Notes: generated by a model not told the origin, from the sequence alone. A stretch of 64,000 nt of DNA from Candidatus Omnitrophota bacterium (GCA_018400015.1 JAGYNB010000002.1:180555-244554); one strand, 5' to 3'. Counted from the stretch's first letter, positions 18,716 to 36,046 are shown. Numbers and translations: made by a program.

Positions 18716-18717
18716 TT

Positions 18718-20439
18718 ATGGTTAAGTCTTTAAGGGACAAGATTCTTGATTATTTATTGGAAGAAAAGAGGATTAGCAAAAGCGATATCGAACGGTTTTC
18801 TAAACTTCAGGAAAAGAGTAATCTTAAGATGGAAACTATTCTTATCGATAATGGTATTATTTCTGCCCAGGAGTATTTATCCATGCTGGCAAGGGAAACC
18901 AATACACCTGTAGTTTGTCTTGAGAGGATTGAGTGTGATCCGGAGATTTTAAATATTATACCGGAAAGAATATGCCAACAGTATAGTATTTTTCCTGTTG
19001 CCAAACTGGGGAATTTACTTACTTTGGCTATGTCTGACCCGATGAATATTTTTGCCATGGACGATATTAAGTCTTTAACATCTTTTGAAATTAATACGGT
19101 TTTAGCCAGCGAAGAAGATATTAAGAAAAACATACAGTTTTGGTATGAGGAATCAAAGAATAAAGATATATCCGAGTTGATTGGAGAGGTCAGCGAAGAA
19201 GAGATCAACGTTGTTGGTGAAATTAAGAAAAGGGAAATTGAAGGACAGTTTGATCTTGACAGGGCAATGTTTGAAGCTGAAGAATCTCCTGTTATCAAGC
19301 TGGTTAACCTTATGCTTAGTGAATCTTACCAGAAAAGGGCTTCGGATATTCATATTGAACCAGAAGAAGATTTTTTAAGGGTGCGCTATAGAATTGACGG
19401 TATGCTGCATGACGCTTACCAGATTCCCAAAGAAAAGCAGAATGCTGTAATCACGCGTATAAAGATAATGTCCAATCTGGATATTACTGAGTTTAGAATT
19501 CCTCAGGATGGCCGTTTTAAGATCCGTTTAGGGCAAAACGAAGTTGATTTCCGTGTATCAATTTTACCGATTAGTTTTGGGGAAAAGGTAGTTATGCGTT
19601 TGTTGGATAAACGTAATCTTTCTATTGGTCTGGAGAAATTAGGATTTTTAGCTGAGCCAATGCAGAAATTCAAAGATTGTATTAGTAAGCCATACGGAAT
19701 GATTCTTGTAACAGGGCCTACAGGGTCGGGAAAATCAACTACGCTTTATTCAATTATTAACCAGCTTAACACGTCCGCAACTCATATAATTACCGTAGAA
19801 GACCCTGTTGAGTATCAGATTGAAGGTATAGCGCAGATTCCGGTTAAGGCGGATATCGGTCTTACGTTCTCTGCTGGGCTTCGGGCGCTTTTGCGTCAAA
19901 GCCCTGATATTATCTTAATCGGTGAGATCAGGGATTCCGAAACTGCCGATATTGCCGTTAAGGCATCTCTCACCGGGCAGATGGTTTTATCGACGCTTCA
20001 TACCAACGATGCTGCAGGAGCAATAACCAGACTTATCGATATGGGCGTTGAACCGTTTTTGGTTTCTTCGAGTTTAATCATGACTTGTGCTCAGCGATTA
20101 AGTAGAAAAATATGTTCAAACTGTAAAGAAGAATATACGCCCGATCCAACGGTAGTAAAAAATCTTGGAATAAAATTGGAAAAAGACTCTGTTTTTTATC
20201 ACGGAAGAGGATGTTCTCATTGCAATAATACGGGTTATCGTGGTAGAATAGGGACAATAGAGGTTTTGGTAATTGATGATAAGATCAGAGAGATGATAAT
20301 CAAAAGAGTCTCATCTGATGAAGTCAGAGAATATGCCGTAACTCAAGGCATGGAGACATTAAGGGATAATGGCCTGCGTCAGGCAGCAATTGGTCTTACG
20401 ACCTTAGAAGAGGTTTTAAGAATCACTTCAGAGGAATAG
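18718..20439 (+). CDS. type IV pilus assembly ATPase PilB/GspE family (paralog 2)
   Basis: Same architecture as paralog 1: Walker A GPTGSGKSTT and CSNC...CSHC zinc site; 573 aa; has an N-terminal domain, so not PilT-like. Confidence 0.85.
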   Translation: MVKSLRDKILDYLLEEKRISKSDIERFSKLQEKSNLKMETILIDNGIISAQEYLSMLARETNTPVVCLERIECDPEILNIIPERICQQYSIFPVAKLGNLLTLAMSDPMNIFAMDDIKSLTSFEINTVLASEEDIKKNIQFWYEESKNKDISELIGEVSEEEINVVGEIKKREIEGQFDLDRAMFEAEESPVIKLVNLMLSESYQKRASDIHIEPEEDFLRVRYRIDGMLHDAYQIPKEKQNAVITRIKIMSNLDITEFRIPQDGRFKIRLGQNEVDFRVSILPISFGEKVVMRLLDKRNLSIGLEKLGFLAEPMQKFKDCISKPYGMILVTGPTGSGKSTTLYSIINQLNTSATHIITVEDPVEYQIEGIAQIPVKADIGLTFSAGLRALLRQSPDIILIGEIRDSETADIAVKASLTGQMVLSTLHTNDAAGAITRLIDMGVEPFLVSSSLIMTCAQRLSRKICSNCKEEYTPDPTVVKNLGIKLEKDSVFYHGRGCSHCNNTGYRGRIGTIEVLVIDDKIREMIIKRVSSDEVREYAVTQGMETLRDNGLRQAAIGLTTLEEVLRITSEE

Positions 20440-24607: not shown

Positions 24608-25077
24608 TGCCATTTAAAAGACAACCCATTTACAAAAAGCAGTTGCTGGGCCAGATTTTCTTAAAAAGCGGAATTATTTCCAAAGAGCAACTTAAGGAAG
24701 CGCTTGAATCACAAAAGAAAGAAGGCGGTTTTTTAGGCGGCGTATTGATAAAATTAGGTTATCTTACGGAGATGGATTTGGTTATGGGGCTTTCCAGTCA
24801 GTGTAGCATACCGTATCTGCCGCCCTTAAGGTACAAGATTCCTAAAAATGTTTCTGAAAATTTAAGCGAAGAATTGTTGCGTAAAAATAGCTTTGTTCCG
24901 ATTGATAAATTTCATGATACATTAACTGTTTGTATGGTTAATCCTTTGGACGATCGCTCAATAACAGAGATTACAAATATTACTAATCTTGAAGTTCTTG
25001 TCTGCATTGCCACCAGAGATGAAATTGAGAAAGCGATTAATAACCTATATAAAAAATCTGGTAAAAATGCGTTGTAA
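24607..25077 (+). CDS. stand-alone MshEN / T2SS-E N-terminal domain protein (putative c-di-GMP binding), second copy
   Basis: 156 aa; both 24-residue motifs intact (QLLGQIFLKSGIISKEQLKEALESQ and FLGGVLIKLGYLTEMDLVMGLSSQ) followed by GspE_N fold; ATG overlaps the stop of the giant gene. Confidence 0.7.
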   Translation: MPFKRQPIYKKQLLGQIFLKSGIISKEQLKEALESQKKEGGFLGGVLIKLGYLTEMDLVMGLSSQCSIPYLPPLRYKIPKNVSENLSEELLRKNSFVPIDKFHDTLTVCMVNPLDDRSITEITNITNLEVLVCIATRDEIEKAINNLYKKSGKNAL

Positions 25078-25145: not shown

Positions 25146-26351
25146 ATGGCTCAGTTTAAATATTATGCAAAAGATAAAAAAGGAGCTTCTGTTAATGGTG
25201 TTTTGGAAGCAGAGAATAAGAATGTTGTTATCGAAGAGTTAAGGCGCAGACAGTTAACGATAATTTCCTTAAAGGAAGCAAAAAAAGCATTCAGTATCGG
25301 AGGTCCAAAGAAAGTCAGCGCTGATGATCTGGTAATTTTCTCTAGACAATTATCCACAATGGTAAATTCCGGTATTCCTTTGGTGCAGTCATTGGATATT
25401 TTAGGTGAACAGCTTGAGAATAAAGAGTTTCGTTCGATAATTATGACCATAAGAGACGATATCCAGACTGGCCTCAGTCTTTCCGGTGCGTTTGCAAAAC
25501 ACCCCAAGGTTTTTTCAACACTTTATATCAATATGGTCAAAGCCGGCGAGACTTCCGGTATGCTCGATGAAATATTAGACAGGCTGGCAATATATCTGGA
25601 AAAATCCAATTCTTTGAAGAAGAAAATAAAATCGGCCATGATTTATCCTGCTTTGGTTTTTAGCATGGCGATTATTATTACTTCAGGATTGTTGATTTTC
25701 GTTGTTCCTCAGTTTAAATCTATTTTTAGCTCTTTTGGAGGTAAACTTCCGTTGCCAACACAGATTTTGATTGCCATAAGCGATAATTTCTCAAAGATAG
25801 TACCTGCTTTGATTGTAATGTTGATCCTTGCCGCAGTTATATTTTCGCGTGTTATTAAAACGCCTAAAGGAAGATATAAGTTTGATCAGTTCAAATTAAA
25901 GGTATTTATTTTTGGCAAGATGTTTCAGATGGTTGCGGTCAGTAGATTCTCTAGAACGCTTTCGACTTTGGTAAGAAGCGGTGTTTCCATTCTTACAGCT
26001 TTAGATATCGTTTCCAAGACAACGGGGAATAAAGTTATTGAGCAGGCGTTAGATAACGTAGGTACTAATATAAAAGAAGGTAAATCTATTGCGTTGCCGT
26101 TAGCGGAAGCAAAGATATTTCCTCCTATGGTTGTAAGGATGATTTCCGTAGGCGAACAGTCCGGAGAACTGGAGAAGATGTTGTCAAAAATCAGTGATTT
26201 TTATGATGAACAGGTGGATATTGCCGTATCGGGCTTATCCAGTGTAATCGAGCCTGTAATTATTATATTCTTGGGTGTTGTGATCGGTTCTATCGTTATC
26301 GCTATATTTTTGCCGATTTTGAAGATGTCTTCTCTTGTTGGGGGCATGTAA
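25146..26351 (+). CDS. pilC: type IV pilus inner-membrane platform protein PilC (GspF family)
   Basis: Two T2SSF repeats and three TM segments; 401 aa; RBS GAGAAAGGA. Confidence 0.85.
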   Translation: MAQFKYYAKDKKGASVNGVLEAENKNVVIEELRRRQLTIISLKEAKKAFSIGGPKKVSADDLVIFSRQLSTMVNSGIPLVQSLDILGEQLENKEFRSIIMTIRDDIQTGLSLSGAFAKHPKVFSTLYINMVKAGETSGMLDEILDRLAIYLEKSNSLKKKIKSAMIYPALVFSMAIIITSGLLIFVVPQFKSIFSSFGGKLPLPTQILIAISDNFSKIVPALIVMLILAAVIFSRVIKTPKGRYKFDQFKLKVFIFGKMFQMVAVSRFSRTLSTLVRSGVSILTALDIVSKTTGNKVIEQALDNVGTNIKEGKSIALPLAEAKIFPPMVVRMISVGEQSGELEKMLSKISDFYDEQVDIAVSGLSSVIEPVIIIFLGVVIGSIVIAIFLPILKMSSLVGGM

Positions 26352-26356: not shown

Positions 26357-26824
26357 ATGAGAAAAAGTTTTTCTCTAATTGAGTTAGTGTTTGCTCTTGG
26401 AATATTGGGTCTTGTAGCAGCGACTTTCATGATGAGTTTTGCCAATTATTCTAATCTTAATGAGACCAATATTAATGTTAACCTAGCATATATAAAGGCC
26501 CGTTCGGTTGTTGAAGAATTGCGTTCCATCGATGATTCAGATGAAGGAGATTTAAAGACTGCGAAGGATAGCTGTGGTACTGAAAAATTAGTAGAAAACG
26601 GTCTTTTGGAAGGAGTTGGCCAGCCTGACACAGGGATTTATTCAGTGTATCTGAAGTGTCTAAGGGATGCAGGCGGGTCGTGTCTTGACAGGACATTTGA
26701 TGTAACGGTATCATTGTGTTGGGTGCAGTCAAACGGAAGAGTAATTGGCGAAAGGGATTCTGATAACGAAGAATGCGAAGATTCTATCTATGAATATACC
26801 AGCAGTTTTACCACTGCTAAATAA
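26357..26824 (+). CDS. type IV pilin-like protein (major pilin candidate; atypical Ser at position -1)
   Basis: N-terminus MRKS/FSLIELVFALGILGLVAA with Glu+5, hydrophobic alpha1-N helix, Cys-rich C-terminal region; 155 aa. Confidence 0.6.
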   Translation: MRKSFSLIELVFALGILGLVAATFMMSFANYSNLNETNINVNLAYIKARSVVEELRSIDDSDEGDLKTAKDSCGTEKLVENGLLEGVGQPDTGIYSVYLKCLRDAGGSCLDRTFDVTVSLCWVQSNGRVIGERDSDNEECEDSIYEYTSSFTTAK

Positions 26825-26827: not shown

Positions 26828-27445
26828 ATGATTTCTAAAATTAAGCTTTTTTCCAGAAAAGGTTTCAGCATACTGGAGTTGATTACGGCGATTGGGATTT
26901 TTTCGTTTTTGACCATATTTTTATTTTCCGGGATTATTACCGTGCGCAATATCTGGCTTAAGTCTTCTGCAAAGATAAAATTGGTTGATGAAGGGATGAA
27001 TGCTTTAAGCGTTATGAAATCAGAATTAGCCCAGTCAGGCAGGGATTATTTTAAGATTACGAATTCAGCTAGCGATTATTGCGCCAACAATGATACTAAT
27101 ACCGGGAGTTTGATTATTTTTCCTGTACCGATTTTAATTAGTGGTAAATATCATGATATCAACGGATCAATTAATTGGGGATATGACGGCGATACGAATA
27201 AAAAAATTCGCTATAGAGTCTATGATAATAAGCTTTTTCGTGAGATAGCAGATACGTCTTCAAGCTCTTGCGATACTATCGAGAGCAAAGTATTAGCTTA
27301 CAATATGGATAGCGACTCGCCTGTTACTTTTGAGTATGATACCGGCAGTCACACGATAGCACTAACTATTAATTTAGAAGATAGGGATTTTGCGAGTAAT
27401 GAAGTTGATTTAAGCCTGGAAGAGATTATTTACCCGGAAAATTAA
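26828..27445 (+). CDS. prepilin-type N-terminal cleavage/methylation domain protein (minor pilin or pseudopilin)
   Basis: Canonical G/FSILELITAIGIFS prepilin motif with Glu+5; 205 aa. Confidence 0.65.
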   Translation: MISKIKLFSRKGFSILELITAIGIFSFLTIFLFSGIITVRNIWLKSSAKIKLVDEGMNALSVMKSELAQSGRDYFKITNSASDYCANNDTNTGSLIIFPVPILISGKYHDINGSINWGYDGDTNKKIRYRVYDNKLFREIADTSSSSCDTIESKVLAYNMDSDSPVTFEYDTGSHTIALTINLEDRDFASNEVDLSLEEIIYPEN

Positions 27446-27458: not shown

Positions 27459-29906
27459 ATGAAAAATAAAAAAGGAATTGCAATAATCGTGACATATTCT
27501 ATATTGGTGCTTTTGTTGATTTTATCCGTTGCGTTTATGTACCAAAGTATTAATGCTAATTATTTGAGCAAAAGAAGAGTTTCAAATAACAAAGCGCGCG
27601 CCAATGCAGAAAAAGGCATTGCGCTCATAAAAAGAGAGCTTGGTTTTAGAAGCCAGAGCAATCCGTTGATCACGCATTCAGTTAACGCTTCCACAGACGC
27701 CTTAGAAAGTAATAATATCAATCCTTCATTACATGTACCAGGTGTTTCCATATTTAATGACGACAGCCAGCCTGATATAGACGGTTGTTTCAATGGCTAT
27801 GATGACGATTCAAATCTTATTTTTAGGGTTAAAACATTCAATAAAGAAAGTTCTTCAGGGGATGTGGTTATTATCAGTCAGGGCATTGACGCAGATAGCA
27901 AAGCATATTTGGCTTCCACGCTTAGTTCTTCCAGTCTTTACCAATATTTTATGTTTTATGAAGGTAAGACATATTTTTTTGGTTCAACTAATATAGACGG
28001 TAAAGGTATAGGAAAGATATTTGTCAATGGTGATGCGGGTTTTACCAGTCCCCAGCTTAAAGATTTGGCTAGTTTTGAAGTTGCCGGAGACATGAGCAAT
28101 TATTATTACGGGTATCTTAATCCCTCTATTTTGGATAGTTTAGCTGCAGACGGCCCTGGTATCACTAACGGTGCTCCCACCCCTTGTCTTTATGTGGATA
28201 CATCTGTTGCCGACCCTGATTATGACTATAGCGATCCCGCTAATCCCGCCAAGCATGATTTTAATGGCGATGGAGTGGTTAATTATAAGGATTGGATATA
28301 TTCTCCTGCTGACCCTCAACCGTGGAACGATAATTCAAGTGCTTATGCCCGGTTTCAGCCGTATACAAGCACTCCTTATGAATGGCGTGACATAGATACG
28401 CATTTTTATAATCCGTCTGGTTTCGGTGACCAGTTTATTTTTACTTCAGAAAGCGGAGCAGTTTCTGATTATGGTTTTAATCTTCCCGGCAACGGAGACG
28501 AATCTGCACTATCAACTTCTTGGGACTTTAATTTATTTGGCAGTGCTTCCAGTTATGATGATATAACCTGGCAGTATTATGATTACCAGACCGGTACGAT
28601 TAAAGCTGCGGACAGTGACTATTGGGATTTTGTAGAGGATAGGTATGGTTTGGAAATTCCTGATTATTTAAGGAATTTAGGTAGTGTTGAAACGCAGTCT
28701 GTCAATTATCTGAATACGGAAAAGCAGCCTGAGTGGCAGTCTTGGCTTGACGGTAAATCAATATCAATGGATGACGGTAGTACTAAAACCTTAGGTGAAA
28801 TAATTAAAACCGACCAGGATTCGATCACCCAGCCCGAGGTAAGCACTTATTATTATGATTTGGCTAATGATCCGGCAACAGGAATATATATAAATCCTGC
28901 GCAGTTGATTAATGGAACTGTTACCGATGAAAAAGTCCAGAAATTAATCGATGAGCAATGTATTACAGTCACGCAGTTTTATAATAATGTTTATCCGGCT
29001 TATGATAAAAAAGGAACAACCAATAATCCAGAAGACGATATTACTTATCCTGAGAAGTCAGTAAAAATTGATGTTGCCTGCGTAAAGGCTTTATCTGATG
29101 ACGCTTCAGATTCAGTGAAAGCTAATATTATTTATGTCGAAGGGGTAAAAACTTCCGTACAGGGCCAGGAATGGGATAATACGCCCGCCGCCGGAGAATA
29201 TAAAAATCTTCCTGTTTCTACGCTGTTGGTTAATGGCGAAAGCGTTCCCGAAGGGGGCTTAACTGTAGTTGCCCCTTATCAGGTATATGTAAAAGGAAAT
29301 TTTAATACTGTTGATCCCCAGTCGTCATCGGTTATCACAAATTCATATTATTATGCAATTTCTGATAATTATCAGGATTATGGAACTGACAGGGAGAGTA
29401 TTGCCTCGACATGCAGTGGGGATTTTTATGATTCCAATTGCGACGGCCCGCAGCATTTGCCAGGACTTTATGATTATTATACAGACATATACGGGAAAGT
29501 AGGCGCTTTGGAATATCCCTATGAAGCAAATGAGGCAGTGAATTATCCGGGTAAAAATAATCCTGAAGTCAATGGCGGTAACTATGACGGTAATTTTACT
29601 CAAAGAATATCTTTAGTCAGTCCTAATCCGTCAGTTTATTTTATTGGCAGAGGCTCAGGCACTTTGAATCGGATTGGTTCGATTATTGAGTCTAAAAGTT
29701 GGGGAGCTTATTATACTCCAGGTGCGTATGATCGCGGCAGGGTCAATTACGGTAATCCTATTGGTAGGTACAGTTCACTTGGATTAAAACAAGCTTACGA
29801 TACAATGCTGGAAACAGACAAACCTCCGGGTGATTACAGCGGCACCTCTAGCGGTTTGTTTGTTGAGGTATCGGAAAATGATTTTTTAGTTAATACTAAA
29901 TTTTAA
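27459..29906 (+). CDS. large PilX_N-domain pilus-associated protein (putative tip or adhesin protein, PilY1-like role)
   Basis: N-terminus KKGIAIIVTYSILVLLLILSVAF resembles PilX_N; 815 aa rich in D/N/Y/G/S; contains an EF-hand-like loop DFNGDGVVNYKD (about 28257-28292). Confidence 0.55.
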   Translation: MKNKKGIAIIVTYSILVLLLILSVAFMYQSINANYLSKRRVSNNKARANAEKGIALIKRELGFRSQSNPLITHSVNASTDALESNNINPSLHVPGVSIFNDDSQPDIDGCFNGYDDDSNLIFRVKTFNKESSSGDVVIISQGIDADSKAYLASTLSSSSLYQYFMFYEGKTYFFGSTNIDGKGIGKIFVNGDAGFTSPQLKDLASFEVAGDMSNYYYGYLNPSILDSLAADGPGITNGAPTPCLYVDTSVADPDYDYSDPANPAKHDFNGDGVVNYKDWIYSPADPQPWNDNSSAYARFQPYTSTPYEWRDIDTHFYNPSGFGDQFIFTSESGAVSDYGFNLPGNGDESALSTSWDFNLFGSASSYDDITWQYYDYQTGTIKAADSDYWDFVEDRYGLEIPDYLRNLGSVETQSVNYLNTEKQPEWQSWLDGKSISMDDGSTKTLGEIIKTDQDSITQPEVSTYYYDLANDPATGIYINPAQLINGTVTDEKVQKLIDEQCITVTQFYNNVYPAYDKKGTTNNPEDDITYPEKSVKIDVACVKALSDDASDSVKANIIYVEGVKTSVQGQEWDNTPAAGEYKNLPVSTLLVNGESVPEGGLTVVAPYQVYVKGNFNTVDPQSSSVITNSYYYAISDNYQDYGTDRESIASTCSGDFYDSNCDGPQHLPGLYDYYTDIYGKVGALEYPYEANEAVNYPGKNNPEVNGGNYDGNFTQRISLVSPNPSVYFIGRGSGTLNRIGSIIESKSWGAYYTPGAYDRGRVNYGNPIGRYSSLGLKQAYDTMLETDKPPGDYSGTSSGLFVEVSENDFLVNTKF

Positions 29907-29917: not shown

Positions 29918-30571
29918 ATGGCGCAAATAAATTTACTACAGACGAGAGCGGTTTTAAAAACTAAAAAAGCAAAGGCGGATAAAGGTGCTGCCAGCGCTAA
30001 GAAGTTTTCTTTTGACTTTAAAATTGACTTTCGCAGGATGCCCAGGTGGTTTTTTGCCATTGCCATAGGCTGGATTGTTTTTTTGGCACTTGGTGAAACG
30101 ATAATGATTTTAAAGTTAAATGATTCCAAGCGAAAACTAAAGATCCTTGAAACAGAAGGCAGTTTTTTTTCAAAAAGCCCCAAAGAGATAGAGGATTTAA
30201 AAAAGAAGAAAAAAAGCCTTCAGGACGCCTTAGGAATTATCGAAGGATTTCTGATTACCAAAACGCCTTTTTCACAGGCGCTTAATATTATAAGTGATCA
30301 GATAATTGACGGGGTTTGGCTTGAGAAGATATTTTTTAATTCCAAGAAAATCGGTAAAGACAAAGAAGAGATCACTATAAAAATAAACGGTAAAGTTTAC
30401 TCGGCAATCTCGCAAGAGCAGATAGATATATTGGGACAGTTTTCCAATGGTTTAAAAAATAATCCTTATTTTGAATTATTGTTTAGCAGTTTGCAGGTTG
30501 GTAATCTTAAAAATGTAGATTATATGGGATTTGATGTTTTGGATTTTGAAATGGAGGTATCTTTAAGATAA
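29918..30571 (+). CDS. pilN: type IV pilus assembly protein PilN-like
   Basis: N-terminal INLLQTR (INLLP-type) motif, single TM segment, periplasmic coiled-coil plus ferredoxin-like region; 217 aa. Confidence 0.7.
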   Translation: MAQINLLQTRAVLKTKKAKADKGAASAKKFSFDFKIDFRRMPRWFFAIAIGWIVFLALGETIMILKLNDSKRKLKILETEGSFFSKSPKEIEDLKKKKKSLQDALGIIEGFLITKTPFSQALNIISDQIIDGVWLEKIFFNSKKIGKDKEEITIKINGKVYSAISQEQIDILGQFSNGLKNNPYFELLFSSLQVGNLKNVDYMGFDVLDFEMEVSLR

Positions 30572-30575
30572 TATT

Positions 30576-31157
30576 ATGGACTTTGATATTAAAAGAATTA
30601 TAGAATGGGTTAAGTTTAGGAAAGTGGAAGTTTCTATTCTTGCGGGGTTATTTGTTATTGGCCTAATATTATCATTTTTGCTATTTCAACCACAGGCGAG
30701 AAAAATCCAGGAATACAATAATTCCTTAATCTCAAGCTCTAAGGATACAAGCAATCTGCGTACAGCGCAAGTAGAATTAAACGAGTTAAAAAAAGAAATT
30801 ACTGTTATTGAAGAGACTTTAGCAGAACATGAAAAAAAACTCTTTTCTCAGGAAGATACTCAGGCATTTTTAAATTATATAAACAGGCTCGCGAAGTTTT
30901 ATAACGTGCGCATTCTAAAGATCAATCCTTTATCACAGGTTGAAAACGAAGTTAAGTCTTTGGATAAGGTGTATCTGGCAATGCCTTATCGGTTGAGTTT
31001 AACCTGTAGCTATCATAATCTAGGGAAATTCCTGAATAAACTTGAGCAGTCAAAGGATAGTTTTGTAAGGGTTGATAGTTTGTCTATACAGGCCGACAAC
31101 AGCAATATGAGAGAGCATAAAGTGGAGTTAGGGATAACTATTTTTTCCATTAAATAA
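30576..31157 (+). CDS. pilO: type IV pilus assembly protein PilO-like
   Basis: Single N-terminal TM segment then coiled coil; size and position between pilN and pilP. Confidence 0.6.
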   Translation: MDFDIKRIIEWVKFRKVEVSILAGLFVIGLILSFLLFQPQARKIQEYNNSLISSSKDTSNLRTAQVELNELKKEITVIEETLAEHEKKLFSQEDTQAFLNYINRLAKFYNVRILKINPLSQVENEVKSLDKVYLAMPYRLSLTCSYHNLGKFLNKLEQSKDSFVRVDSLSIQADNSNMREHKVELGITIFSIK

Positions 31158-31158
31158 T

Positions 31159-31545
31159 ATGAAAAAGATAATTTTATTAATTATGTTTTTGAGTTTCTCA
31201 ATAATTGCTAGTGCCAGTGAAAATGATTTTGAACAAAGGCTTAATTTTGTGTATAATGATAATAATAAGCGCGATCCGTTTATCCCTTTACTTGATAAAG
31301 ACGGGTTGCGACCAAGATCGGATTTATTTGAGAAAGCTGAACTTCCGATAAAAATTGATCTATCAGGTATTGTCTGGAATAAACAAGTGCAATTTGCTAT
31401 AATTAATGGTAAAATAGTGAAAGAAAATGAAGAAGTTACAAGAGGTCTTACTTTAGAAAAAATTAATTCTGATAACGTGGTTTTAGAGTATGGAGGAAGA
31501 AGTACTAAGGTGTATATAGGAGGCCCTAAGAAGGATGATAAGTAG
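31159..31545 (+). CDS. pilP: type IV pilus assembly protein PilP-like
   Basis: Signal peptide, conserved RDPF motif (NKRDPFIPLL), C-terminal beta domain; 128 aa. Confidence 0.6.
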   Translation: MKKIILLIMFLSFSIIASASENDFEQRLNFVYNDNNKRDPFIPLLDKDGLRPRSDLFEKAELPIKIDLSGIVWNKQVQFAIINGKIVKENEEVTRGLTLEKINSDNVVLEYGGRSTKVYIGGPKKDDK

Positions 31546-33100
31546 TAAAAGAATAAAGTTTATATTTGTTTTTTTATTGTGCTTAGGTGTTTGTATATAT
31601 ACACTTAACGCAGAAGAGTTTAATCCTGCTGAGTTTGGCCAGGAAGGATTTGATCCTGCTTTTCAGGCAGTGCCACCTATTCAAACCGCACAAGTTATCA
31701 AAAAAGATAGCGTTCAAAAGCAGGAAGAGGAAATTCCAGCCAAAGAACAAGCTTTTGAGGCAGGTGGGGTTTACAACAATGAGGATTTTGTGAATTTGGC
31801 TTTTGACAATGCCGATATCCGCGATGTTATAAAAGTTTTAGCTGCAAGAAGCGATATGAATATTATTGTCGGTGAGGGTGTTCAAGCAAATGTTACCATG
31901 AAGCTAAAAGATGTAATTTGGGAGTCAGCCCTGGAATTAATCCTAAATACGTATAATCTTACCTATCAAAAAGAAGGCAATCTTATTAGAGTTATGACGC
32001 TTACTGAATCTGAAGAGGAAGCGAAGAAAATTCCAATGATAACTAAGATCATTCCGCTTAATTTCGCACAAACTCCTGAAATGTCCGCTTCCATTGCCAA
32101 GATGCTTTCTGCAAGAGGGTCTGTACAGGAAAATGTACGTACGAATACATTGATTATCACCGATATCCCTTCGCGCGTTAAGATGATAGAAGAGACGATT
32201 ACGAAACTTGATACACCTACACCCCAGGTTTTAATCGATGTTTTGATTATGGATATCACCTTAACCGATAGCGATGATCTGGGTGTTGACTGGCAGGCAA
32301 TCACGACAAACCAGTTATCAGATTTAAGCAGTGCCAATAGAACAAAGTCGGTCACTTTAGAGCAGCCATCAGGCATGTCTACAACAGGCGGTATTGCAGG
32401 AGATCCGGCATTTACGCTGGCTCTTGTTAAAAAGTTTGGTGAAGCTAATTTTACTGCTAACCTGCAGGCATGGATAGAAAATAAAGAAGCCAAGGTTTTG
32501 GCAAATCCGAAGATTTTAACGCTTGATAATCAGGAAGCTAAAATCGAAATAATAAATCAGTTTCCATATCTGCAGACTTCAAGTTCGACTGACGGCGGCA
32601 GCACTAGCGGAACAGAATATAAAAATATAGGAACTAGCCTTAGCGTAACAGCGCATATTACTAATGACGGACATATTACTTTAAATTTAAAACCGGAACA
32701 GGATATAAATGCCGGAACCGACTCTACAACCGGTGCGCCTATTGTTGATACCCGTTCTGCCGAGACCAATGTTTTGGTAAAAGATGGCCAGACCGTTGCC
32801 TTGGGCGGTTTAAGGCGTGTTGATAAGTCTACTACTATAAGCAAAGTACCTATTTTGGGGGATATTCCGTTTATCGGCAAGATATTCCAGAATAGGCAAA
32901 TTGACGACAAGGACGTTGAACTTGTAATGTTTGTTACTCCTCATATCATAAAGGATGCTGGCATAACTGATAAAGAAAGAATGTACATAAAAGAAAATCT
33001 TCCTGGTCCACAAAGGCCTTTTTTGCGCAACAAGCCCTTTGTTTTAGAGGAAAAATACGATTTAAGGTCCCCTTCATATAAAACTAAAGGGAGTAAATAA
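31535..33100 (+). CDS. pilQ: type IV pilus secretin PilQ (short form, no AMIN domains)
   Basis: Signal peptide, N0/N1-type domains, C-terminal secretin domain (VLANPKILTLDNQEAKIEI...GGLRRVDKSTTISKVPILGDIPFIGKIFQ). Confidence 0.85.
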   Translation: MISSKRIKFIFVFLLCLGVCIYTLNAEEFNPAEFGQEGFDPAFQAVPPIQTAQVIKKDSVQKQEEEIPAKEQAFEAGGVYNNEDFVNLAFDNADIRDVIKVLAARSDMNIIVGEGVQANVTMKLKDVIWESALELILNTYNLTYQKEGNLIRVMTLTESEEEAKKIPMITKIIPLNFAQTPEMSASIAKMLSARGSVQENVRTNTLIITDIPSRVKMIEETITKLDTPTPQVLIDVLIMDITLTDSDDLGVDWQAITTNQLSDLSSANRTKSVTLEQPSGMSTTGGIAGDPAFTLALVKKFGEANFTANLQAWIENKEAKVLANPKILTLDNQEAKIEIINQFPYLQTSSSTDGGSTSGTEYKNIGTSLSVTAHITNDGHITLNLKPEQDINAGTDSTTGAPIVDTRSAETNVLVKDGQTVALGGLRRVDKSTTISKVPILGDIPFIGKIFQNRQIDDKDVELVMFVTPHIIKDAGITDKERMYIKENLPGPQRPFLRNKPFVLEEKYDLRSPSYKTKGSK

Positions 33101-34980
33101 TGAGGAAAAAGTTCTTATTAATTTTTACTTTTTTTATTTTAAGTTTTTCTTTGAATTATTCCTTTGCCCAAGATCAAAATCCTCTTCTTGGTGAAGAAGA
33201 ATTGATATGGCAAAAAAACGTTAGCGGCATAAAAGATGCAGTGAAAGATTTAATTAACGAAAACAAGAACTTAAAGCAGCAAATTGAGTTAAGGTCTTTA
33301 GAGATGCACAAACTTAATGAAATCATGAAGACCTTGCAGGAAAAGAACGAAACACTTCAGCAAAAAATCGAATCAACTGACCTTAAAGTTAATTTAAACA
33401 GCAAAGTAAAGTCTCTCGTCCAGCGCGCTGATTCATTAGAAAGCGTGAAAGCCTCGCTTGATGAAGAGGTAAAACAGCTCAGAGAGGAAAATAAAACTTT
33501 AAAAAGAGACTCCGCGGCATTTGAAAAAGAGCTCAACACGTTAAGAAAAAAACTTGAAGCTACGGAAGATGAACTTAAACAAATGAATGATTCTTATGGC
33601 AATTTTAAGCAAAAATCTCTTGATTACGAAAAAGAGCTTGAGGGCAAACTTGTTAAATTAGAGTCTGATAATAAAAGATTTAGCGCGGCAGCTGAAGAAA
33701 ATGAGAAGTTGTCAACTCAGCTTAATGAAATAAAACAAGATCTTGAAAGTTCTCAGAAAGAAATCGGTGAATTAAAAAAATCTTTAGCGGCCAAGGACAA
33801 GATAATTGGATTCAGTAAGGATGAGCTTAAAAAAATCGAGCTTTTATCCAGCGAGTTAGGAAAAAGTGAAAAAGAAGTAGTTGATTTGAGAAAACAGTTG
33901 AATGAGTCCAATAAAAATTTAGAGATTGCCAATAAAGAGATTGGATTGCTTAATGAATCGTTCAATAAATTCAAAGAAAAATCAGCTGAATATCAGGAAA
34001 AACTGATCAAAGCCCAGAAAGAGAATATAGATTTAGAAAGCAGGATCGCTCCTTTGCAAGACGACTTAAAAAAAAAGATTTTAGAGATTGAAAATGTTAA
34101 GTCTGGTTATGAAAACCAGATTTCATTGTTAAAGACTCAAAATTCCGCATTAGAAGACAGAATCGCATTTTTTTCTCAAGAGATTACCCAGTTAACGGCT
34201 GAAAAAAGAGAATTAGAATCCTCGATGGCCAAGTTAAAGTCTAGAATCGAACCTCTAGTGAGCCCTTTTAAAGAAGAGATTCGTCAAAAAGACTACGAGC
34301 TCGATAGAATCAAGTCTAATTACGAAAAAGATTTAAGTAAGATTAAGGAAAATAATTCTTCTTTGAATGATAGAATAGATTCTTTGAGCGGTTTTATCGC
34401 TCAGGCAAATGCTGAAAAAAGACTTCTTGAACAAGAGTTTTTAAATATGCAGGACAAGCTTAAGTCTCTGGAGCAGGAAAAAGATCTTGCCTTAAGAAGA
34501 TCTGTTATGGTCAGCGATGCCCGTAAAACAAAACAAATTAGAACTGCTTCTGTTTATTCTGATTCCAAACAGAAGGATAATGGTTTTCAAATACCTGAAA
34601 GCGTAAAATTAAGGGCATTAAAACAGGCAGAGAATAAATTAGGCAGTTTTACAAAACAGGATTCGACAGCTATAGGGGCGATGCTTGAAACTGCTTATGA
34701 TTATGCGTTTGGTGGTCAGATTAAATTGGCAATAAAAGAATATGCCAATGTTTTAGAGATTGATCCCGGGAACAAAGACGCCTTGTTTAACCAGGGGGTA
34801 ATTTATCTTAATGCCAATGATTCTAGACGTGCAGTTGTTAACTTTGAGAAGCTCATAGAATTAGATCCCAATGACGAACAGGCATTATATAATTTGGCTT
34901 TATGTTACAGTAAGCTTCATAATAAAAAACAGATGGAATATTATTATTTAAAATATTTGGAATTGGAAAATGGCTCTTGA
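33100..34980 (+). CDS. secreted coiled-coil protein with C-terminal TPR repeats (pilus-associated; PilF/FimV-like role possible)
   Basis: Signal peptide MRKKFLLIFTFFILSFSLNYSFAQ, about 450 aa of continuous coiled coil, 3-4 C-terminal TPR motifs. Confidence 0.55.
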   Translation: MRKKFLLIFTFFILSFSLNYSFAQDQNPLLGEEELIWQKNVSGIKDAVKDLINENKNLKQQIELRSLEMHKLNEIMKTLQEKNETLQQKIESTDLKVNLNSKVKSLVQRADSLESVKASLDEEVKQLREENKTLKRDSAAFEKELNTLRKKLEATEDELKQMNDSYGNFKQKSLDYEKELEGKLVKLESDNKRFSAAAEENEKLSTQLNEIKQDLESSQKEIGELKKSLAAKDKIIGFSKDELKKIELLSSELGKSEKEVVDLRKQLNESNKNLEIANKEIGLLNESFNKFKEKSAEYQEKLIKAQKENIDLESRIAPLQDDLKKKILEIENVKSGYENQISLLKTQNSALEDRIAFFSQEITQLTAEKRELESSMAKLKSRIEPLVSPFKEEIRQKDYELDRIKSNYEKDLSKIKENNSSLNDRIDSLSGFIAQANAEKRLLEQEFLNMQDKLKSLEQEKDLALRRSVMVSDARKTKQIRTASVYSDSKQKDNGFQIPESVKLRALKQAENKLGSFTKQDSTAIGAMLETAYDYAFGGQIKLAIKEYANVLEIDPGNKDALFNQGVIYLNANDSRRAVVNFEKLIELDPNDEQALYNLALCYSKLHNKKQMEYYYLKYLELENGS

Positions 34981-36046
34981 TCAAAAAGGTTTTTTAGGCA
35001 TAGGCAGTAGTCTTTTCAAGCAAAAAGAAAAGAATTTTGTAGGTATTGATATCGGTTCATCAAGCATTAAGATTGTAAGGCTTGTTCCGAATAGAGATAA
35101 TAAGAAAATGCAGTTAAGTGATTTTGCCGATATTGCTTTTGAAGAACAGGTCAGCACCGATCAAATAAAACGCGCGGTTGATGAAGCTTTAAAGCAAACC
35201 AATATTCCTAAAGATAGCGAAGCAGTTTTTAATATCCCCAATAATTCTGCCATAACCCGTTTTATAGTAATGCCGAAGATGAATCATGACGACCTGAGAA
35301 AAGCCATTGGTTATGAACTTGAAAAATACATTGCTTTTGATACAAAAGAGGCTGTTTATGATTTTCGTATTTTGGATGACCTGCAGACTAAAGAAGGCCA
35401 TTTAAAAGTTCTTTTGGTTATTACAAAGAAAGAGACTGTTGATGAAAGGGTAAAGGCGATCGAAGATGCAGGGCTTATTCCTAAAGTGGTAAGTATTGAT
35501 TCTGTTGTTATTCCTAATACATTTTATCTTAATCATATAGATAAAAAAGATAAGAATATCGCCATAGTAAACCTTGGATCTCGGCTATGCAGTATCAGTG
35601 TTGTTAAAGGCGGAATATCCAACTTTATGCGTGATATAGCAATTGGAATAGAAAATATAGTAAGTTTGGTTTCGGAAAAACTGGAAATGAACAAAACTGA
35701 TATTATTAATTCTATTATGAAACCTGAATTGCAGTCTAATGATTTTAAAGATATTATTAATTCAGTTTTGTCTAATTTGTTGAACGAACTTTACCTTTCG
35801 TTCGATTATTACGAGACGCAGTTCGAAACTTCTATTGACGAGATTTATATTACCGGCGGACTTTCTCAGCAGCCGGGTTTGATTGACTTTTTATCCAGTA
35901 ATTTAGGTATATCAGTTAATAAACTTAATCCCCTATTGAATCTTGAAGTTGCTGCCGAATTGAAGTCCAAGATTGATTCAAAGAAGGATATTATGGCTGT
36001 AAGCATAGGTCTTGCCTTAGAGGAATCCGATCTAAAATATTTTTAA
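34970..36046 (+). CDS. pilM: type IV pilus assembly protein PilM (actin-like ATPase fold)
   Basis: FVGIDIGSSSIKIVRL N-terminal ASKHA phosphate-1 motif, PilM_2 domain organisation; 358 aa. Confidence 0.8.
   Translation: MALDQKGFLGIGSSLFKQKEKNFVGIDIGSSSIKIVRLVPNRDNKKMQLSDFADIAFEEQVSTDQIKRAVDEALKQTNIPKDSEAVFNIPNNSAITRFIVMPKMNHDDLRKAIGYELEKYIAFDTKEAVYDFRILDDLQTKEGHLKVLLVITKKETVDERVKAIEDAGLIPKVVSIDSVVIPNTFYLNHIDKKDKNIAIVNLGSRLCSISVVKGGISNFMRDIAIGIENIVSLVSEKLEMNKTDIINSIMKPELQSNDFKDIINSVLSNLLNELYLSFDYYETQFETSIDEIYITGGLSQQPGLIDFLSSNLGISVNKLNPLLNLEVAAELKSKIDSKKDIMAVSIGLALEESDLKYF

What the first reader, a model, noticed from the sequence alone, without database searches (positions are those of the whole stretch)
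27459..29906. 815-aa PilX_N-type protein with an EF-hand-like calcium loop: candidate tip adhesin
The N-terminus matches the PilX N-terminal hydrophobic segment. The remaining roughly 780 aa are D/N/Y/G/S-rich. The loop DFNGDGVVNYKD (about 28257-28292) fits the 12-residue EF-hand consensus (D1, N3, D5, G6, V8, D12). In Pseudomonas PilY1 an EF-hand-like site tunes pilus extension and retraction. A PilX and PilY1 fusion-like protein here could be the tip adhesin and calcium sensor.
Basis: partly seen in the sequence, partly recalled or inferred. Interest (0 to 1): 0.6.

Follow-up and report, generated by a model that had tools for sequence, protein, structure and literature searches.

The report
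Oversized PilX/ComZ-type pilus tip pilin
The 815-residue gene most likely encodes the cap subunit of a type IV pilus in an uncultured Omnitrophota bacterium: a PilX/ComZ-like pilin enlarged by a beta-solenoid and an extra domain, with one probable calcium-binding loop, and it is not a fusion with the PilY1 adhesin.

Summary
ORF 27459-29906 (+) encodes 815 aa, and DFNGDGVVNYKD is aa 267-278 (nt 28257-28292).

- **Family.** No Pfam or NCBIfam model hits the protein. An exhaustive HMMER search finds 144 relatives of 700-1100 aa; the four with an organism name are Omnitrophota.
- **Cap-pilin features.** All aligned members share a prepilin-like leader (KKG|hydrophobic) with no Glu5. This is the mark of PilX/GspK-class terminal minor pilins.
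- **Link to PilX_N.** The first ~215 aa are homologous (hhalign 99.6%) to a shorter Omnitrophota PilX_N/DUF4900 family. The model of that family matches Thermus ComZ (E 1.6e-10).
- **Fold.** The AlphaFold model (pLDDT 76.6) shows a long helix, a beta-sheet and short solenoid-like strands. Its only PDB match is ComZ, weakly. There is no PilY1 propeller.
- **Context.** The gene follows two Glu5-bearing minor pilins inside a PilB-PilB-PilC...PilN-O-P-Q...PilM cluster.
- **The loop.** It lies in an insert (aa ~241-285) found only in this protein and its one orthologue. All ligand positions are conserved there. Its pattern is dockerin-like (N9, D12). The model is low-confidence there.

Best reading: a tip cap/adhesin pilin with a probable structural Ca2+ site. 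A calcium sensor for retraction is unsupported. Moderate-to-low interest.

The parts
27459..29906 (+). Gene for the 815-aa PilX/ComZ-type large minor pilin (P0001)
   Evidence: ORF list and translation. There is one orthologue at 49% identity with identical synteny. 144 family representatives were found.
27459..27476 (+). Prepilin-like leader MKNKKG (aa 1-6), ending in Gly at -1
   Evidence: Gly is present in 51 of 51 non-gap family sequences. The family profile aligns this segment to the leader and first helix of Geobacter PilA-N in PDB (E 0.052, weak). Cleavage is inferred, not shown.
27477..27641 (+). Hydrophobic alpha-1 helix and its extension (aa 7-61). It lacks Glu5 (position +5 is Val) and carries the A..AE.G motif typical of PilX_N
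   Evidence: The model shows a helix over aa 4-61 with pLDDT above 90. Glu at +5 occurs in 0 of 56 members. The segment is 38% identical to a protein that hits PilX_N. hhalign gives 99.6%.
27789..27935 (+). Beta-sheet after the helix (aa 111-159), read as the pilin-fold sheet
   Evidence: Long antiparallel-type strands E111-114, 120-128, 136-144 and 147-159 with pLDDT 88-96. The region lies within the stretch homologous to the PilX_N/DUF4900 family. Assignment to the pilin fold is by analogy with ComZ.
27945..28178 (+). First run of short strands (aa 163-240), read as beta-solenoid rungs; includes the family motif IFVNG
   Evidence: Short strands recur every 6-8 residues. N190 is nearly invariant. 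The start of this run aligns to the short ComZ-like family.
28185..28376 (+). Low-confidence surface excursion (aa 243-306). Residues ~241-285 are an insert found only in this protein and its orthologue
   Evidence: pLDDT is below 50 for aa 243-253, 262-270 and 274-306. Occupancy by the other 54 family members is 0.00-0.19 for aa 241-285.
28257..28292 (+). DFNGDGVVNYKD (aa 267-278): 12-residue DxNxDGxVNxxD loop of dockerin/EF-hand type, a probable Ca2+ site
   Evidence: Coordinates. Ligand positions are conserved in P0002. Chance occurrence is 2.4%. Dockerin_1 gives E 0.055 and EF-hand_1 gives E 0.18 on the fragment, both sub-threshold. Ca2+ binding is not shown.
28434..29108 (+). Family-conserved alpha/beta middle region (aa ~326-550; motifs YLNT..Q...W..WL and GIYI). 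It has no counterpart in the short PilX_N/DUF4900 proteins and no PDB analogue
   Evidence: pLDDT is 86-95 over aa 410-500. Q423, A469, G475 and F507 are nearly invariant. hhalign of aa 216-550 against the short family finds nothing (probability 0.1%). No Pfam hit in any of 56 members. No PDB fold hit other than ComZ.
29127..29690 (+). Second run of short solenoid-like strands (aa 557-744), with the best conserved motif LLVNGESVPEGGLTVVAPYQVYVKGNFN
   Evidence: Strands at 557-634 and 713-744. Occupancy is 0.98-1.00 for aa 586-630 and N616 is invariant. The motif is collinear with the LPxNGALFVxGG segment of the short family (hhalign E 7.8e-5, probability 62%). It is also the second region hit by many family members.
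29412..29459 (+). Cys-bracketed loop CSGDFYDSNCDGPQHL (aa 652-667) containing the second, non-EF-hand DSNCDG motif
   Evidence: C652 and C661 are conserved in P0002. The DCDGPQHLPGL stretch is also present in P0003. pLDDT is low here. A disulfide bond is an inference.
29781..29903 (+). C-terminal strands and the PPGD motif (aa 775-815), possibly returning to the pilin sheet as in ComZ
   Evidence: Strands 775-779 and 794-803 with pLDDT about 90. Weak collinear similarity to the C-terminus of the short family (BLASTP E 0.031; hhalign E 0.14).
26357..26824 (+). Minor pilin 1 (155 aa), leader RKS|FSLIELV with Glu5
   Evidence: N_methyl E 0.0011. Weak ComGE and GspI hits. Prepilin motif scan.
26828..27445 (+). 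Minor pilin 2 (205 aa), leader RKG|FSILELI with Glu5
   Evidence: N_methyl E 0.0063. Weak ComGE and GspJ hits. Prepilin motif scan.
16985..20439 (+). Two tandem PilB/GspE-type assembly ATPases with MshEN N-terminal domains
   Evidence: T2SSE E 1e-132 and 1e-135. TIGR02538 PilB scores 641 and 633 bits, just under the 675.65 cut-off.
25146..26351 (+). PilC/GspF platform protein
   Evidence: T2SSF E 1.6e-67. PilC and GspF models at E 1e-125 to 1e-128, below their cut-offs.
29918..33100 (+). PilN-like (217 aa, starts MAQINLL), PilO, PilP/T2SSB-like protein and PilQ secretin
   Evidence: PilO E 4.5e-11, T2SSB E 1.1e-8 and Secretin E 3.5e-49. TIGR02515 PilQ scores 291.6 bits, above the 284.35 cut-off. 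The PilN assignment rests on position and the INLL motif only.
34970..36046 (+). PilM
   Evidence: TIGR01175 scores 155.1 bits, above the 133 cut-off. PilM_2 E 3.1e-42.

Best explanation
The gene encodes the terminal ('cap') minor pilin of a type IVa-like pilus in an uncultured Omnitrophota bacterium. It is a greatly enlarged relative of PilX, GspK and ComZ.

Shown here:
- It has a prepilin-type leader ending in Gly, followed by a long hydrophobic helix that lacks Glu5.
- Its first ~215 residues are homologous to a shorter PilX_N/DUF4900 family whose predicted fold matches Thermus ComZ, a pilin fold with an inserted beta-solenoid.
- Its own model shows helix, sheet and solenoid-like strands, interrupted by a ~335-residue region. 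Most of that region (aa ~300-550) is a family-conserved alpha/beta part with no known analogue.
- It is the third gene of a small-pilin, small-pilin, large-pilin cassette inside a PilB-PilB-PilC...PilN-O-P-Q...PilM cluster. No PilY1 gene is present in that cluster.

Inferred from the established logic for GspK, PilX and ComZ:
- A subunit without Glu5 cannot have another subunit added above it, so it is incorporated first.
- It forms the priming complex with the two upstream Glu5-bearing minor pilins through their N-terminal helices.
- It ends up at the distal tip. There the bulky solenoid and alpha/beta module caps the fibre and serves as the contact or adhesion surface, plausibly for attachment to surfaces or host cells as proposed for Omnitrophota pili.

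The DFNGDGVVNYKD loop is most likely (about 55%) a single dockerin/EF-hand-type Ca2+ site. It would rigidify a surface insert specific to this lineage in the extracellular milieu. It is a structural site rather than a regulator of extension and retraction.
For: Leader and absence of Glu5:
- From the sequence and across the family: Gly at -1 in 51 of 51 members, Glu at +5 in 0 of 56.
- The family profile's best PDB sequence hit is the leader plus first helix of Geobacter PilA-N.

Homology:
- 144 representatives at E<=1e-3 and 81 at E<=1e-10, mostly 700-1100 aa.
- NCBI names one member 'pilus assembly PilX N-terminal domain-containing protein'. The four organism names returned among ten members looked up are all Omnitrophota.
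- The 430-aa relative in L005 hits PilX_N at E 8.3e-10 and is 38% identical over the first 61 aa (E 5e-9).
- hhalign of the two families gives probability 99.6%, E 7.6e-24 over about 200 columns.

Fold:
- The AlphaFold2 model has pLDDT 76.6 and pTM 0.80: helix 4-61, sheet 111-159, then runs of short solenoid-like strands.
- Its only PDB fold hit at E<=0.001 is ComZ 6QVI, E 1.5e-4.
- The model of the short family (pLDDT 84.8) hits ComZ at E 1.6e-10, probability 1.00. An ice-binding solenoid and minor pseudopilins follow at non-significant E (0.16 and above).
- ComZ is a GspK-like pilin with a beta-solenoid, argued to sit at the tip (PMC6561018).

Context:
- Two Glu5 prepilins lie directly upstream.
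- PilQ and PilM score above their NCBIfam cut-offs.
- The same gene order occurs in the orthologous locus.
- Independent family members also follow small prepilin genes.
- No PilY1-type domain was found in any scanned ORF between 13.3 and 36.0 kb.
- Cyanobacterial PilX proteins with beta-solenoids have been proposed to replace PilY1 as the tip plug (bioRxiv 10.64898/2026.02.12.705559).

Loop:
- Ligand positions are conserved in the orthologue despite flanking indels.
- DxDxDG loops are enriched 4.6-fold across the family.
- One member carries a dockerin pair that just passes the Pfam threshold (P0034, E 9.5e-5, 23.0 bits against a 22.9 cut-off); a second (P0085) is sub-threshold.
- GspK/XcpX-class cap pseudopilins are known to bind Ca2+ at two to three sites (PMC6211770).
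Against: - No curated model (Pfam PilX_N, T2SSK, NCBIfam) hits the protein itself. The PilX link is transitive.
- The ComZ match of the query model is weak: probability 0.54, TM 0.11-0.17, rmsd 24 A.
- I could not inspect coordinates. The solenoid geometry and the insertion point within the pilin fold are therefore unverified.
- The window contains no major pilin, prepilin peptidase, fourth (GspH/FimU-like) minor pilin or PilT. Pilus versus secretion pseudopilus is not settled.
- Tip location, cleavage and adhesion are all inferred.
- The loop lies where pLDDT is mostly below 50 and is absent from the 54 other aligned members.
- Only one orthologous lineage exists to judge conservation.
- A 2.4% chance occurrence is not negligible for a motif picked after the fact.
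Confidence: 0.6

Rival explanations
1. The protein is a PilX-PilY1 fusion whose EF-hand-like site senses calcium and tunes pilus extension against retraction, as in Pseudomonas PilY1.
For: - The loop fits Dx[DN]xDG, and PilY1 sites are written Dx[DN]xDGxxD (PMC8833165).
- No separate PilY1 gene is present in the cluster.
- The protein is large enough to carry an adhesin domain.
Against: - No PilY1/PilC domain is detected by Pfam at E<=10.
- No PilY1 chain appears in sequence or fold searches of PDB.
- The model shows solenoid-like strands plus an alpha/beta region, with ComZ as its only PDB match and no PilY1 propeller.
- Position 9 of the loop is N, not D.
- The loop lies in a lineage-specific insert absent from 54 relatives.
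- There is no PilT in the window.
Confidence: 0.04
2. The machine is a type II secretion-like system, and the protein is the GspK-equivalent tip of a periplasmic pseudopilus that pushes or selects substrates. It would not be an exposed adhesin.
For: - Both ATPases and the platform protein score almost as well against GspE and GspF as against PilB and PilC.
- The window has no PilT and no major pilin.
- The small pilins give weak GspI and GspJ hits.
- ComZ's pilin domain is closest to GspK (PMC6561018).
- GspK binds Ca2+ (PMC6211770).
Against: - The alignment subcomplex is of the PilM/N/O/P type, and PilM and PilQ pass their NCBIfam cut-offs. No GspL, GspM or GspC equivalogue was hit.
- An 815-aa cap would be very bulky for a periplasmic piston.
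- Type IVa pili are reported as near-universal in Omnitrophota (PMC10066038).
Confidence: 0.12
3. The protein is a ComZ-like DNA receptor at the tip of a competence pilus.
For: - ComZ is the only structural match for both the query model and its short relatives.
- ComZ binds DNA (PMC6561018).
Against: - The ComZ lysines implicated in DNA binding cannot be mapped, because there is no sequence-level similarity.
- No comEA, comEC or dprA genes are present in the window.
- The protein is strongly acidic and polar (D 9.4%, R 1.9%, K 4.4%), which argues against nucleic-acid binding.
Confidence: 0.06
4. The protein is the tip pilin as described, but the DFNGDG loop does not bind calcium. It would be a chance or purely structural turn in a D/N/G-rich, fast-evolving insert.
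For: - The chance of such a motif in this composition is 2.4%, for a motif chosen post hoc.
- Pfam EF-hand and dockerin scores are below threshold.
- Most of the loop and its surroundings are predicted with pLDDT below 50.
- The loop is absent from the rest of the family.
- Only one orthologue supports conservation.
Against: - All seven consensus positions are kept at 49% overall identity, with indels on both sides.
- The motif class is 4.6-fold enriched in the family, and the 12-residue form is about 8-fold enriched.
- The pattern, including N9 and D12, is the specific dockerin Ca2+-loop pattern. One relative carries a dockerin pair that passes the Pfam threshold.
Confidence: 0.25

Closest known systems
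ComZ of Thermus thermophilus (PDB 6QVI; PMC6561018)
   Same: - A prepilin-like N-terminal helix, a GspK-like pilin sheet and a large beta-solenoid.
- It is encoded among small minor pilins and is argued to be too bulky for anywhere but the tip.
- It is the only PDB fold match of the query model (E 1.5e-4) and a strong match for the homologous short Omnitrophota family (E 1.6e-10).
   Different: - No detectable sequence similarity.
- The query is about 50% longer than the ComZ chains (498-518 residues in 6QVI), with a ~335-aa region that includes a family-conserved alpha/beta part with no counterpart, plus a DxNxDG loop.
- ComZ binds DNA, whereas this protein is acidic.
- The insertion topology could not be verified here.
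PilX_N/DUF4900 proteins (about 430 aa) of Omnitrophota, and cyanobacterial beta-solenoid PilX proteins including HpsA-like ones (bioRxiv 10.64898/2026.02.12.705559)
   Same: - Homologous N-terminal ~215 aa (hhalign 99.6%).
- The same cassette order: small pilin, small pilin, PilX-like.
- No Glu5.
- A collinear LPxGG segment and a C-terminal PPxGD motif.
- The cyanobacterial proteins are proposed to replace PilY1 as the tip plug.
   Different: - The query family is twice as long.
- None of its 56 tested members hits PF14341 or PF16241 at E<=0.01.
- The middle domain is unique to it.
- A relationship to cyanobacterial PilX or HpsA was not tested directly, because no sequences were at hand.
GspK/XcpX, the cap pseudopilin of type II secretion (PMC6211770)
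   Same: - The terminal subunit without Glu5, which heads a GspI-GspJ-GspK trimer.
- It carries an inserted domain in the pilin fold and binds Ca2+ at two to three sites.
   Different: - GspK's insert is alpha-helical and lies between strands 3 and 4 (PMC6561018).
- No T2SSK Pfam or NCBIfam hit here.
- The machine genes here are of the PilMNOPQ type.
PilY1/PilC tip adhesins (PMC8833165)
   Same: - A possible functional analogy: a large tip-associated protein with a DxDxDG-type Ca2+ site, acting together with minor pilins.
   Different: - PilY1 is a different protein class, with a type I signal peptide and a C-terminal beta-propeller that carries the Ca2+ site.
- None of these features was found here.
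Dockerin type I repeat / EF-hand loop
   Same: - A 12-residue DxNxDGxVNxxD loop with Asp at position 12 and Asn at position 9.
- One family member (P0034) carries a dockerin pair that passes the Pfam threshold, and a second (P0085) has a sub-threshold pair.
   Different: - There is only a single loop, without the paired repeat or the following helix.
- Scores are sub-threshold (Dockerin_1 E 0.055, EF-hand_1 E 0.18).
- The structure is not confidently predicted there.

Membership tests
PilX/GspK-class terminal (cap) minor pilin | Prepilin-type leader ending in Gly, followed by a hydrophobic alpha-1 helix | tested here: met
   The leader is MKNKKG|IAIIVTYSILVLLLILSVAF. The model shows a helix over aa 4-61. 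Gly is present in 51 of 51 family members. The family profile aligns to the PilA-N leader and helix, weakly at E 0.052.
PilX/GspK-class terminal (cap) minor pilin | No Glu at mature position 5 | tested here: met
   Position +5 is Val. Glu occurs there in 0 of 56 family members, while both upstream small pilins have Glu5.
PilX/GspK-class terminal (cap) minor pilin | Match to Pfam PilX_N (PF14341) above the gathering score | tested here: not met
   No hit even at E<=10 for the whole protein or for its first 100 aa, and none in 56 relatives at E<=0.01. The link is indirect: a 430-aa homologue scores 38.9 bits against the 25.5 cut-off, and hhalign between the two families gives 99.6%.
PilX/GspK-class terminal (cap) minor pilin | Encoded last in a cassette of minor pilins within, or together with, a type IV filament machine | tested here: met
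   Genes of 155 aa, 205 aa and 815 aa lie between pilC and pilN. The same holds in the orthologue and in independent members.
PilX/GspK-class terminal (cap) minor pilin | Cleaved by prepilin peptidase and located at the filament tip | not testable with these tools
   This needs biochemistry or imaging. No prepilin peptidase gene is present in the window.
ComZ-type beta-solenoid pilin | Pilin fold combined with a large beta-solenoid domain | tested here: inconclusive
   The secondary-structure pattern of the model fits this, and ComZ is the only PDB hit. However, TM is 0.11-0.17 and probability 0.54. The homologous short family matches at probability 1.00.
ComZ-type beta-solenoid pilin | Solenoid inserted between the penultimate and last strands of the pilin sheet | not testable with these tools
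Only the conserved C-terminal strand (aa 794-803) hints at this arrangement.
ComZ-type beta-solenoid pilin | DNA binding | not testable with these tools
The acidic composition argues against it.
PilY1/PilC tip adhesin | Type I (Sec) signal peptide, not a pilin helix | tested here: not met
   The N-terminus is a prepilin-like leader followed by a 58-residue helix.
PilY1/PilC tip adhesin | C-terminal PilY1 beta-propeller domain | tested here: not met
   No Pfam family at E<=10. No PilY1 chain in sequence or fold searches of PDB. The C-terminal half is predicted as short solenoid-like strands with low-confidence loops.
PilY1/PilC tip adhesin | Dx[DN]xDGxxD Ca2+ site within the propeller | tested here: not met
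   The loop reads DFNGDGVVN, with N at position 9. It lies in a non-propeller, lineage-specific insert.
EF-hand / dockerin Ca2+-binding loop | 12-residue loop with ligands at positions 1, 3, 5 and 12, Gly at 6 and a hydrophobic residue at 8 | tested here: met
   D267, N269, D271, G272, V274 and D278. The same positions are kept in P0002.
EF-hand / dockerin Ca2+-binding loop | Domain-level match: helix-loop-helix, or a paired dockerin repeat | tested here: not met
   Dockerin_1 scores 14.1 bits against a 22.9 cut-off and EF-hand_1 scores 11.9 against 25.4. There is a single copy only.
EF-hand / dockerin Ca2+-binding loop | Pentagonal-bipyramidal coordination geometry and actual Ca2+ binding | not testable with these tools
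   pLDDT is below 50 over aa 262-270 and 274-306. No metal modelling was available.
Verru_Chthon cassette protein A (PVC pseudopilin cassette, NCBIfam) | Match to the NCBIfam model | tested here: not met
   No NCBIfam family at E<=1 for the 815-aa protein. The 205-aa neighbour scores only 13.6 bits against a 256.5 cut-off for cassette protein C.

The most novel reading that the evidence does not exclude
Omnitrophota possess a previously undescribed family of giant PilX/ComZ-type tip pilins.
- The family has at least 144 clusters at 50% identity and no Pfam coverage.
- Its members carry a conserved alpha/beta region of up to ~335 aa with an unknown fold.
- They also carry interchangeable Ca2+/dockerin-type surface modules.
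- Some genomes hold them in tandem arrays of three to four alternative cassettes.

On this reading these proteins are the host- or prey-recognition heads of the pili that these ultra-small, putatively parasitic bacteria use. The dockerin-like loops would let the tip dock onto cohesin-like partners or be switched by environmental Ca2+.
Probability: 0.15. Interest if true: 0.6.

Novelty: new variant of a known kind. Interest (0 to 1): 0.3.

Why it matters
Cap pilins decide what a type IV pilus sticks to and how its assembly starts. In Proteobacteria that role is shared with PilY1. In Thermus, and according to a 2026 preprint in cyanobacteria, a beta-solenoid built into PilX/ComZ appears to take it over.

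This locus suggests the same solution in the PVC-group phylum Omnitrophota, in a much enlarged form with an additional conserved domain of unknown fold and occasional Ca2+-binding modules. Omnitrophota are uncultured nanobacteria thought to attach to hosts by type IVa pili (PMC10066038). These proteins are therefore the obvious candidates for host-recognition determinants and a concrete target for heterologous expression.

The EF-hand-like loop on its own is a minor, lineage-specific feature.

Tried and rejected
- **Direct family scans.** Pfam and NCBIfam scans of the protein, of its first 100 aa and of the loop fragment gave no significant family.
- **Sequence search of PDB.** Nothing was found with the protein. 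The family profile returned only a weak pilin-leader match.
- **Word-indexed homologue searches.** The protein found only itself and one orthologue. The 56-sequence profile added one more protein. The exhaustive HMMER search was what revealed the family.
- **Pfam on 56 members.** No PilX_N, DUF4900, PilY1 or T2SSK hit.
- **Collection scans.** Genome and metagenome scans for more orthologues returned only the Ace Lake Ca. Gygaella lineage, so loop conservation rests on one comparison.
- **Provenance.** The window's own contig is not on record.
- **Small pilins.** PDB sequence searches with the two small pilins were uninformative.
- **Rejected: a generic secreted repeat protein.** No internal repeats were seen in the alignments or the model, and the pilin-type N-terminus is conserved.
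- **Rejected: a lipoprotein or Sec-secreted adhesin.** There is no lipobox, and the N-terminal helix is 58 residues long.
- **Rejected: Verru_Chthon cassette protein A**.
- **Rejected: DSNCDG (aa 658-663) as a second EF-hand.** It has no acidic residue at position 9 or 12.

Full report
**1. What is in the sequence.**
The ORF 27459..29906 (+) is real. It has an ATG start and encodes 815 aa. After residue 40 the protein is rich in S (10.3%), D (9.4%), G (8.6%), Y (8.0%) and N (7.5%). The window has 36.8% G+C.

The only close relative in genome and metagenome collections is an 860-aa protein. It is 49% identical by BLASTP (53% of query residues are identical in the MAFFT alignment). It comes from Ace Lake metagenomes and the MAG Candidatus Gygaella obscura, phylum Omnitrophota. 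Gene order around it is identical.

**2. Is the loop more than chance?**
- Shuffling the protein gives at least one D.[DN].[DN]G.{5}[DE] motif in 2.4% of trials. This is suggestive but not compelling for a motif chosen after reading.
- The orthologue keeps D1, N3, D5, G6, V8, N9 and D12 (DFNGDGNVNKLD), although insertions of 11, 21 and 5 residues flank the loop in that protein.
- Identity is 67% over aa 265-279, against 45% in the flanks.
- Across 144 family representatives, D.[DN].[DN]G motifs number 53 against 11.6 +/- 3.6 in shuffles. The 12-residue form numbers 11 against 1.4.
- One member (P0034) has a dockerin type I pair that just passes the Pfam threshold, and NCBI names it accordingly. 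A second member (P0085) has a sub-threshold pair.

The loop belongs to a class of Ca2+-type surface loops that recur in this family. With Asn at position 9 and Asp at position 12, it follows the dockerin pattern rather than a canonical EF-hand. On the isolated fragment Dockerin_1 gives E 0.055 and EF-hand_1 gives E 0.18, both below threshold.

The loop lies in an insert (aa ~241-285) that the other 54 aligned members lack: column occupancy there is 0.00-0.19.

**3. What the protein is.**
No Pfam or NCBIfam model hits it, and PilX_N does not hit it directly.

An exhaustive HMMER search with the two orthologues finds 144 cluster representatives at E<=1e-3, of which 81 are at E<=1e-10. Most are 700-1100 aa. 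They share the first ~240 residues and a second block around LLVNG..P.GGLT.V.P..VY.KG.FN. None of 56 members tested hits any pilus-related Pfam family at E<=0.01. Of ten members looked up, four carry an organism name, and all four are Omnitrophota. One of them is labelled 'pilus assembly PilX N-terminal domain-containing protein'.

All aligned members have Gly at the end of a short basic leader (51 of 51). None has Glu at mature position 5 (0 of 56). The two small proteins encoded immediately upstream have canonical prepilin leaders with Glu5: RKS|FSLIELV and RKG|FSILELI. The absence of Glu5 is the hallmark of the terminal PilX/GspK subunit (bioRxiv 10.64898/2026.02.12.705559; PMC6211770).

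**4. Link to known families.**
The genome scan also returned a contig (L005, record title 'uncultured Planctomycetia bacterium') with a 136-aa, 148-aa and 430-aa cassette. The named relatives of its 430-aa protein are all Omnitrophota.
- The 430-aa protein is 38% identical to the query over the first 61 residues (E 5e-9).
- It hits PilX_N at E 8.3e-10.
- It has 665 relatives at E<=1e-5. Those listed are pre-annotated PF16241 (DUF4900), some also PF14341, and some are named 'Tfp pilus assembly protein PilX'.

Profile-profile comparison of the two families gives probability 99.6% and E 7.6e-24 over about 200 columns. These cover the helix, the sheet and the first solenoid-like strands. Region by region:
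- aa 216-550 of the query have no counterpart in the short family (probability 0.1%).
- The LP.GGLT segment is collinear with the short family's LPxNGALFVxGG (E 7.8e-5, probability 62%).
- The extreme C-terminus (YD..L....PPGD) is weakly collinear (BLASTP E 0.031).

**5. Structure.**
AlphaFold2 with the 56-sequence alignment gives mean pLDDT 76.6 and pTM 0.80. The model contains:
- a helix at aa 4-61;
- a sheet at aa 111-159;
- short strands repeating every 6-8 residues at aa 163-214, 557-634 and 713-803, a pattern consistent with a beta-solenoid;
- a confident alpha/beta region around aa 340-550.

pLDDT is below 50 for aa 243-253, 262-270, 274-306, 640-657 and 670-707.

Foldseek against PDB returns a single match at E<=0.001: ComZ of Thermus thermophilus (6QVI), with E 1.5e-4, probability 0.54 and TM only 0.11-0.17. 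No PilY1 chain is returned. The model of the short family (pLDDT 84.8) matches ComZ at E 1.6e-10 and probability 1.00. Below it, at non-significant E-values (0.16 and above), come an ice-binding DUF3494 solenoid and XcpGHIJK, XcpV/W and S. sanguinis minor pilins.

ComZ is a GspK-like pilin fold with an inserted ~380-residue beta-solenoid. It binds the neighbouring pilin PilA2 and is argued to fit only at the pilus tip (PMC6561018). I could not access model coordinates, so neither the solenoid geometry nor the insertion point in the query was verified.

**6. Context.**
The gene lies inside a cluster with the following order:
- a GAF-GGDEF protein;
- a stand-alone MshEN-domain protein;
- two PilB/GspE-type ATPases;
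- a 1388-aa GGDEF-AAA_16-HEAT protein;
- a second stand-alone MshEN-domain protein;
- PilC;
- minor pilin 1, minor pilin 2 and the 815-aa protein;
- a PilN-like protein, PilO, a PilP/T2SSB-like protein and the PilQ secretin;
- a coiled-coil/TPR protein;
- PilM.

PilQ and PilM pass their NCBIfam cut-offs, so the alignment subcomplex is of the type IVa kind. The window contains no PilT, prepilin peptidase, major pilin, fourth minor pilin or PilY1.

Type IVa pilus clusters are reported in most Omnitrophota and are discussed there as attachment devices for a host-dependent lifestyle (PMC10066038).

**7. Mechanism proposed.**
Shown: a prepilin-type N-terminus without Glu5; homology to PilX_N/DUF4900 proteins; a ComZ-like fold class; a position after two Glu5 pilins in a pilus machine cluster.

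Inferred:
- The protein is the first subunit assembled.
- It bundles with the two small pilins to prime the filament.
- It remains at the tip, where its solenoid and alpha/beta module cap the fibre and provide the binding surface. This takes the place of PilY1, as suggested for cyanobacterial PilX.
- The DxNxDG loop probably binds Ca2+ and stiffens a lineage-specific surface excursion. GspK/XcpX cap pseudopilins also bind Ca2+, with a Kd of about 26 uM for XcpX (PMC6211770).

Nothing supports a role of the loop in balancing extension and retraction.

**8. Comparison and membership.**
The protein works like, and is distantly related to, PilX/GspK/ComZ-class cap pilins.
- It fails the formal Pfam PilX_N test but meets the sequence-logic tests: leader, no Glu5, and cassette position.
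- It is not a PilY1. It has no type I signal peptide, no propeller, and the motif is not of the 9-residue PilY1 form.
- It is not a GspK by model match, nor a Verru_Chthon cassette A protein.
- The loop meets the 12-residue consensus but not the domain-level definitions of an EF-hand or a dockerin.

**9. Novelty and score.**
The principle of a cap pilin enlarged by a beta-solenoid has been known since 2019 (ComZ) and was extended to cyanobacteria in a 2026 preprint. Some relatives are already labelled PilX_N proteins by NCBI.

What is new is the Omnitrophota family itself. It is twice the size of the short family, lacks Pfam coverage, has a conserved middle domain with no structural analogue, and carries scattered Ca2+/dockerin modules. 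I rate it a new variant of a known kind.

The specific claim that drew attention, an EF-hand as a PilY1-like calcium sensor, is not supported. Interest: 0.3.

Noticed in passing
L007:4615-17955 (NCBI GCA_042571725.1, contig JBHPFN010000002.1, Omnitrophota): Four tandem paralogues of the large PilX-like family lie here (777 aa, 834 aa, 829 aa and one cut by the contig end). Each is preceded by one Glu5-type prepilin gene. This looks like an array of alternative tip modules.
   Followed up: partly
L007:4615-6603 and L007:8993-10186: Two of those prepilin-type proteins (662 aa and 397 aa, starting MNKKAFTVFEVLV and MKKNAFALPELLV) carry Hint/PT-HINT (intein or hedgehog-like autoprocessing) domains according to precomputed Pfam hits. 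This is an unusual combination for a pilin.
   Followed up: no
L008:7969-18465 (JGI 3300045411): Three consecutive cassettes occur here. The first is 131 aa, 206 aa and 986 aa; the second is 1037 aa; the third is 141 aa, 230 aa and at least 627 aa. All the large proteins score E<=1e-91 against the family profile.
   Followed up: partly
window 15129-25077: The pilus cluster is unusually rich in c-di-GMP parts. It holds a GAF-GGDEF protein (15129-16529) and two stand-alone MshEN-domain proteins (16532-16981 and 24607-25077). It also holds two tandem PilB-like ATPases with MshEN N-domains (16985-20439) and a 1388-aa GGDEF-AAA_16-HEAT protein (20441-24607) between the ATPases and pilC.
   Followed up: partly
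window 16985-20439: Two full-length PilB/GspE-type ATPases lie in tandem, and no PilT-type retraction ATPase is present anywhere in the 64 kb.
   Followed up: partly
window 26357-26824: The first small pilin has Ser instead of Gly at the -1 position of the prepilin cleavage motif (RKS|FSLIELV).
   Followed up: no
window 33100-36046: A 626-aa protein with a ~450-residue coiled coil and C-terminal TPR repeats lies between the secretin gene and pilM. As a result pilM is separated from pilN, pilO, pilP and pilQ and comes last.
   Followed up: no
family members P0005, P0009, P0010, P0011, P0015, P0081, P0128, P0130 (residues ~70-110): A DxDxDGDxxxEL-type acidic loop recurs at about position 80, just after the conserved W.TH motif in the N-terminal region. 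It is a second, non-orthologous candidate Ca2+ site in this family. The window protein lacks it.
   Followed up: partly
window 29412-29459 (aa 652-667): A Cys-X8-Cys bracketed segment followed by DGPQHLPGL is conserved in P0002, and the DCDGPQHLPGL stretch is also in the fragment P0003. C501 and C541 are likewise conserved between the two orthologues. This suggests disulfides, which would be consistent with an extracytoplasmic location.
   Followed up: no
L005:9134-11287: The record title of this contig says 'uncultured Planctomycetia bacterium'. However, the named relatives of its PilX_N/DUF4900 protein, at 48-77% identity, are all Omnitrophota. The bin may be misassigned.
   Followed up: no
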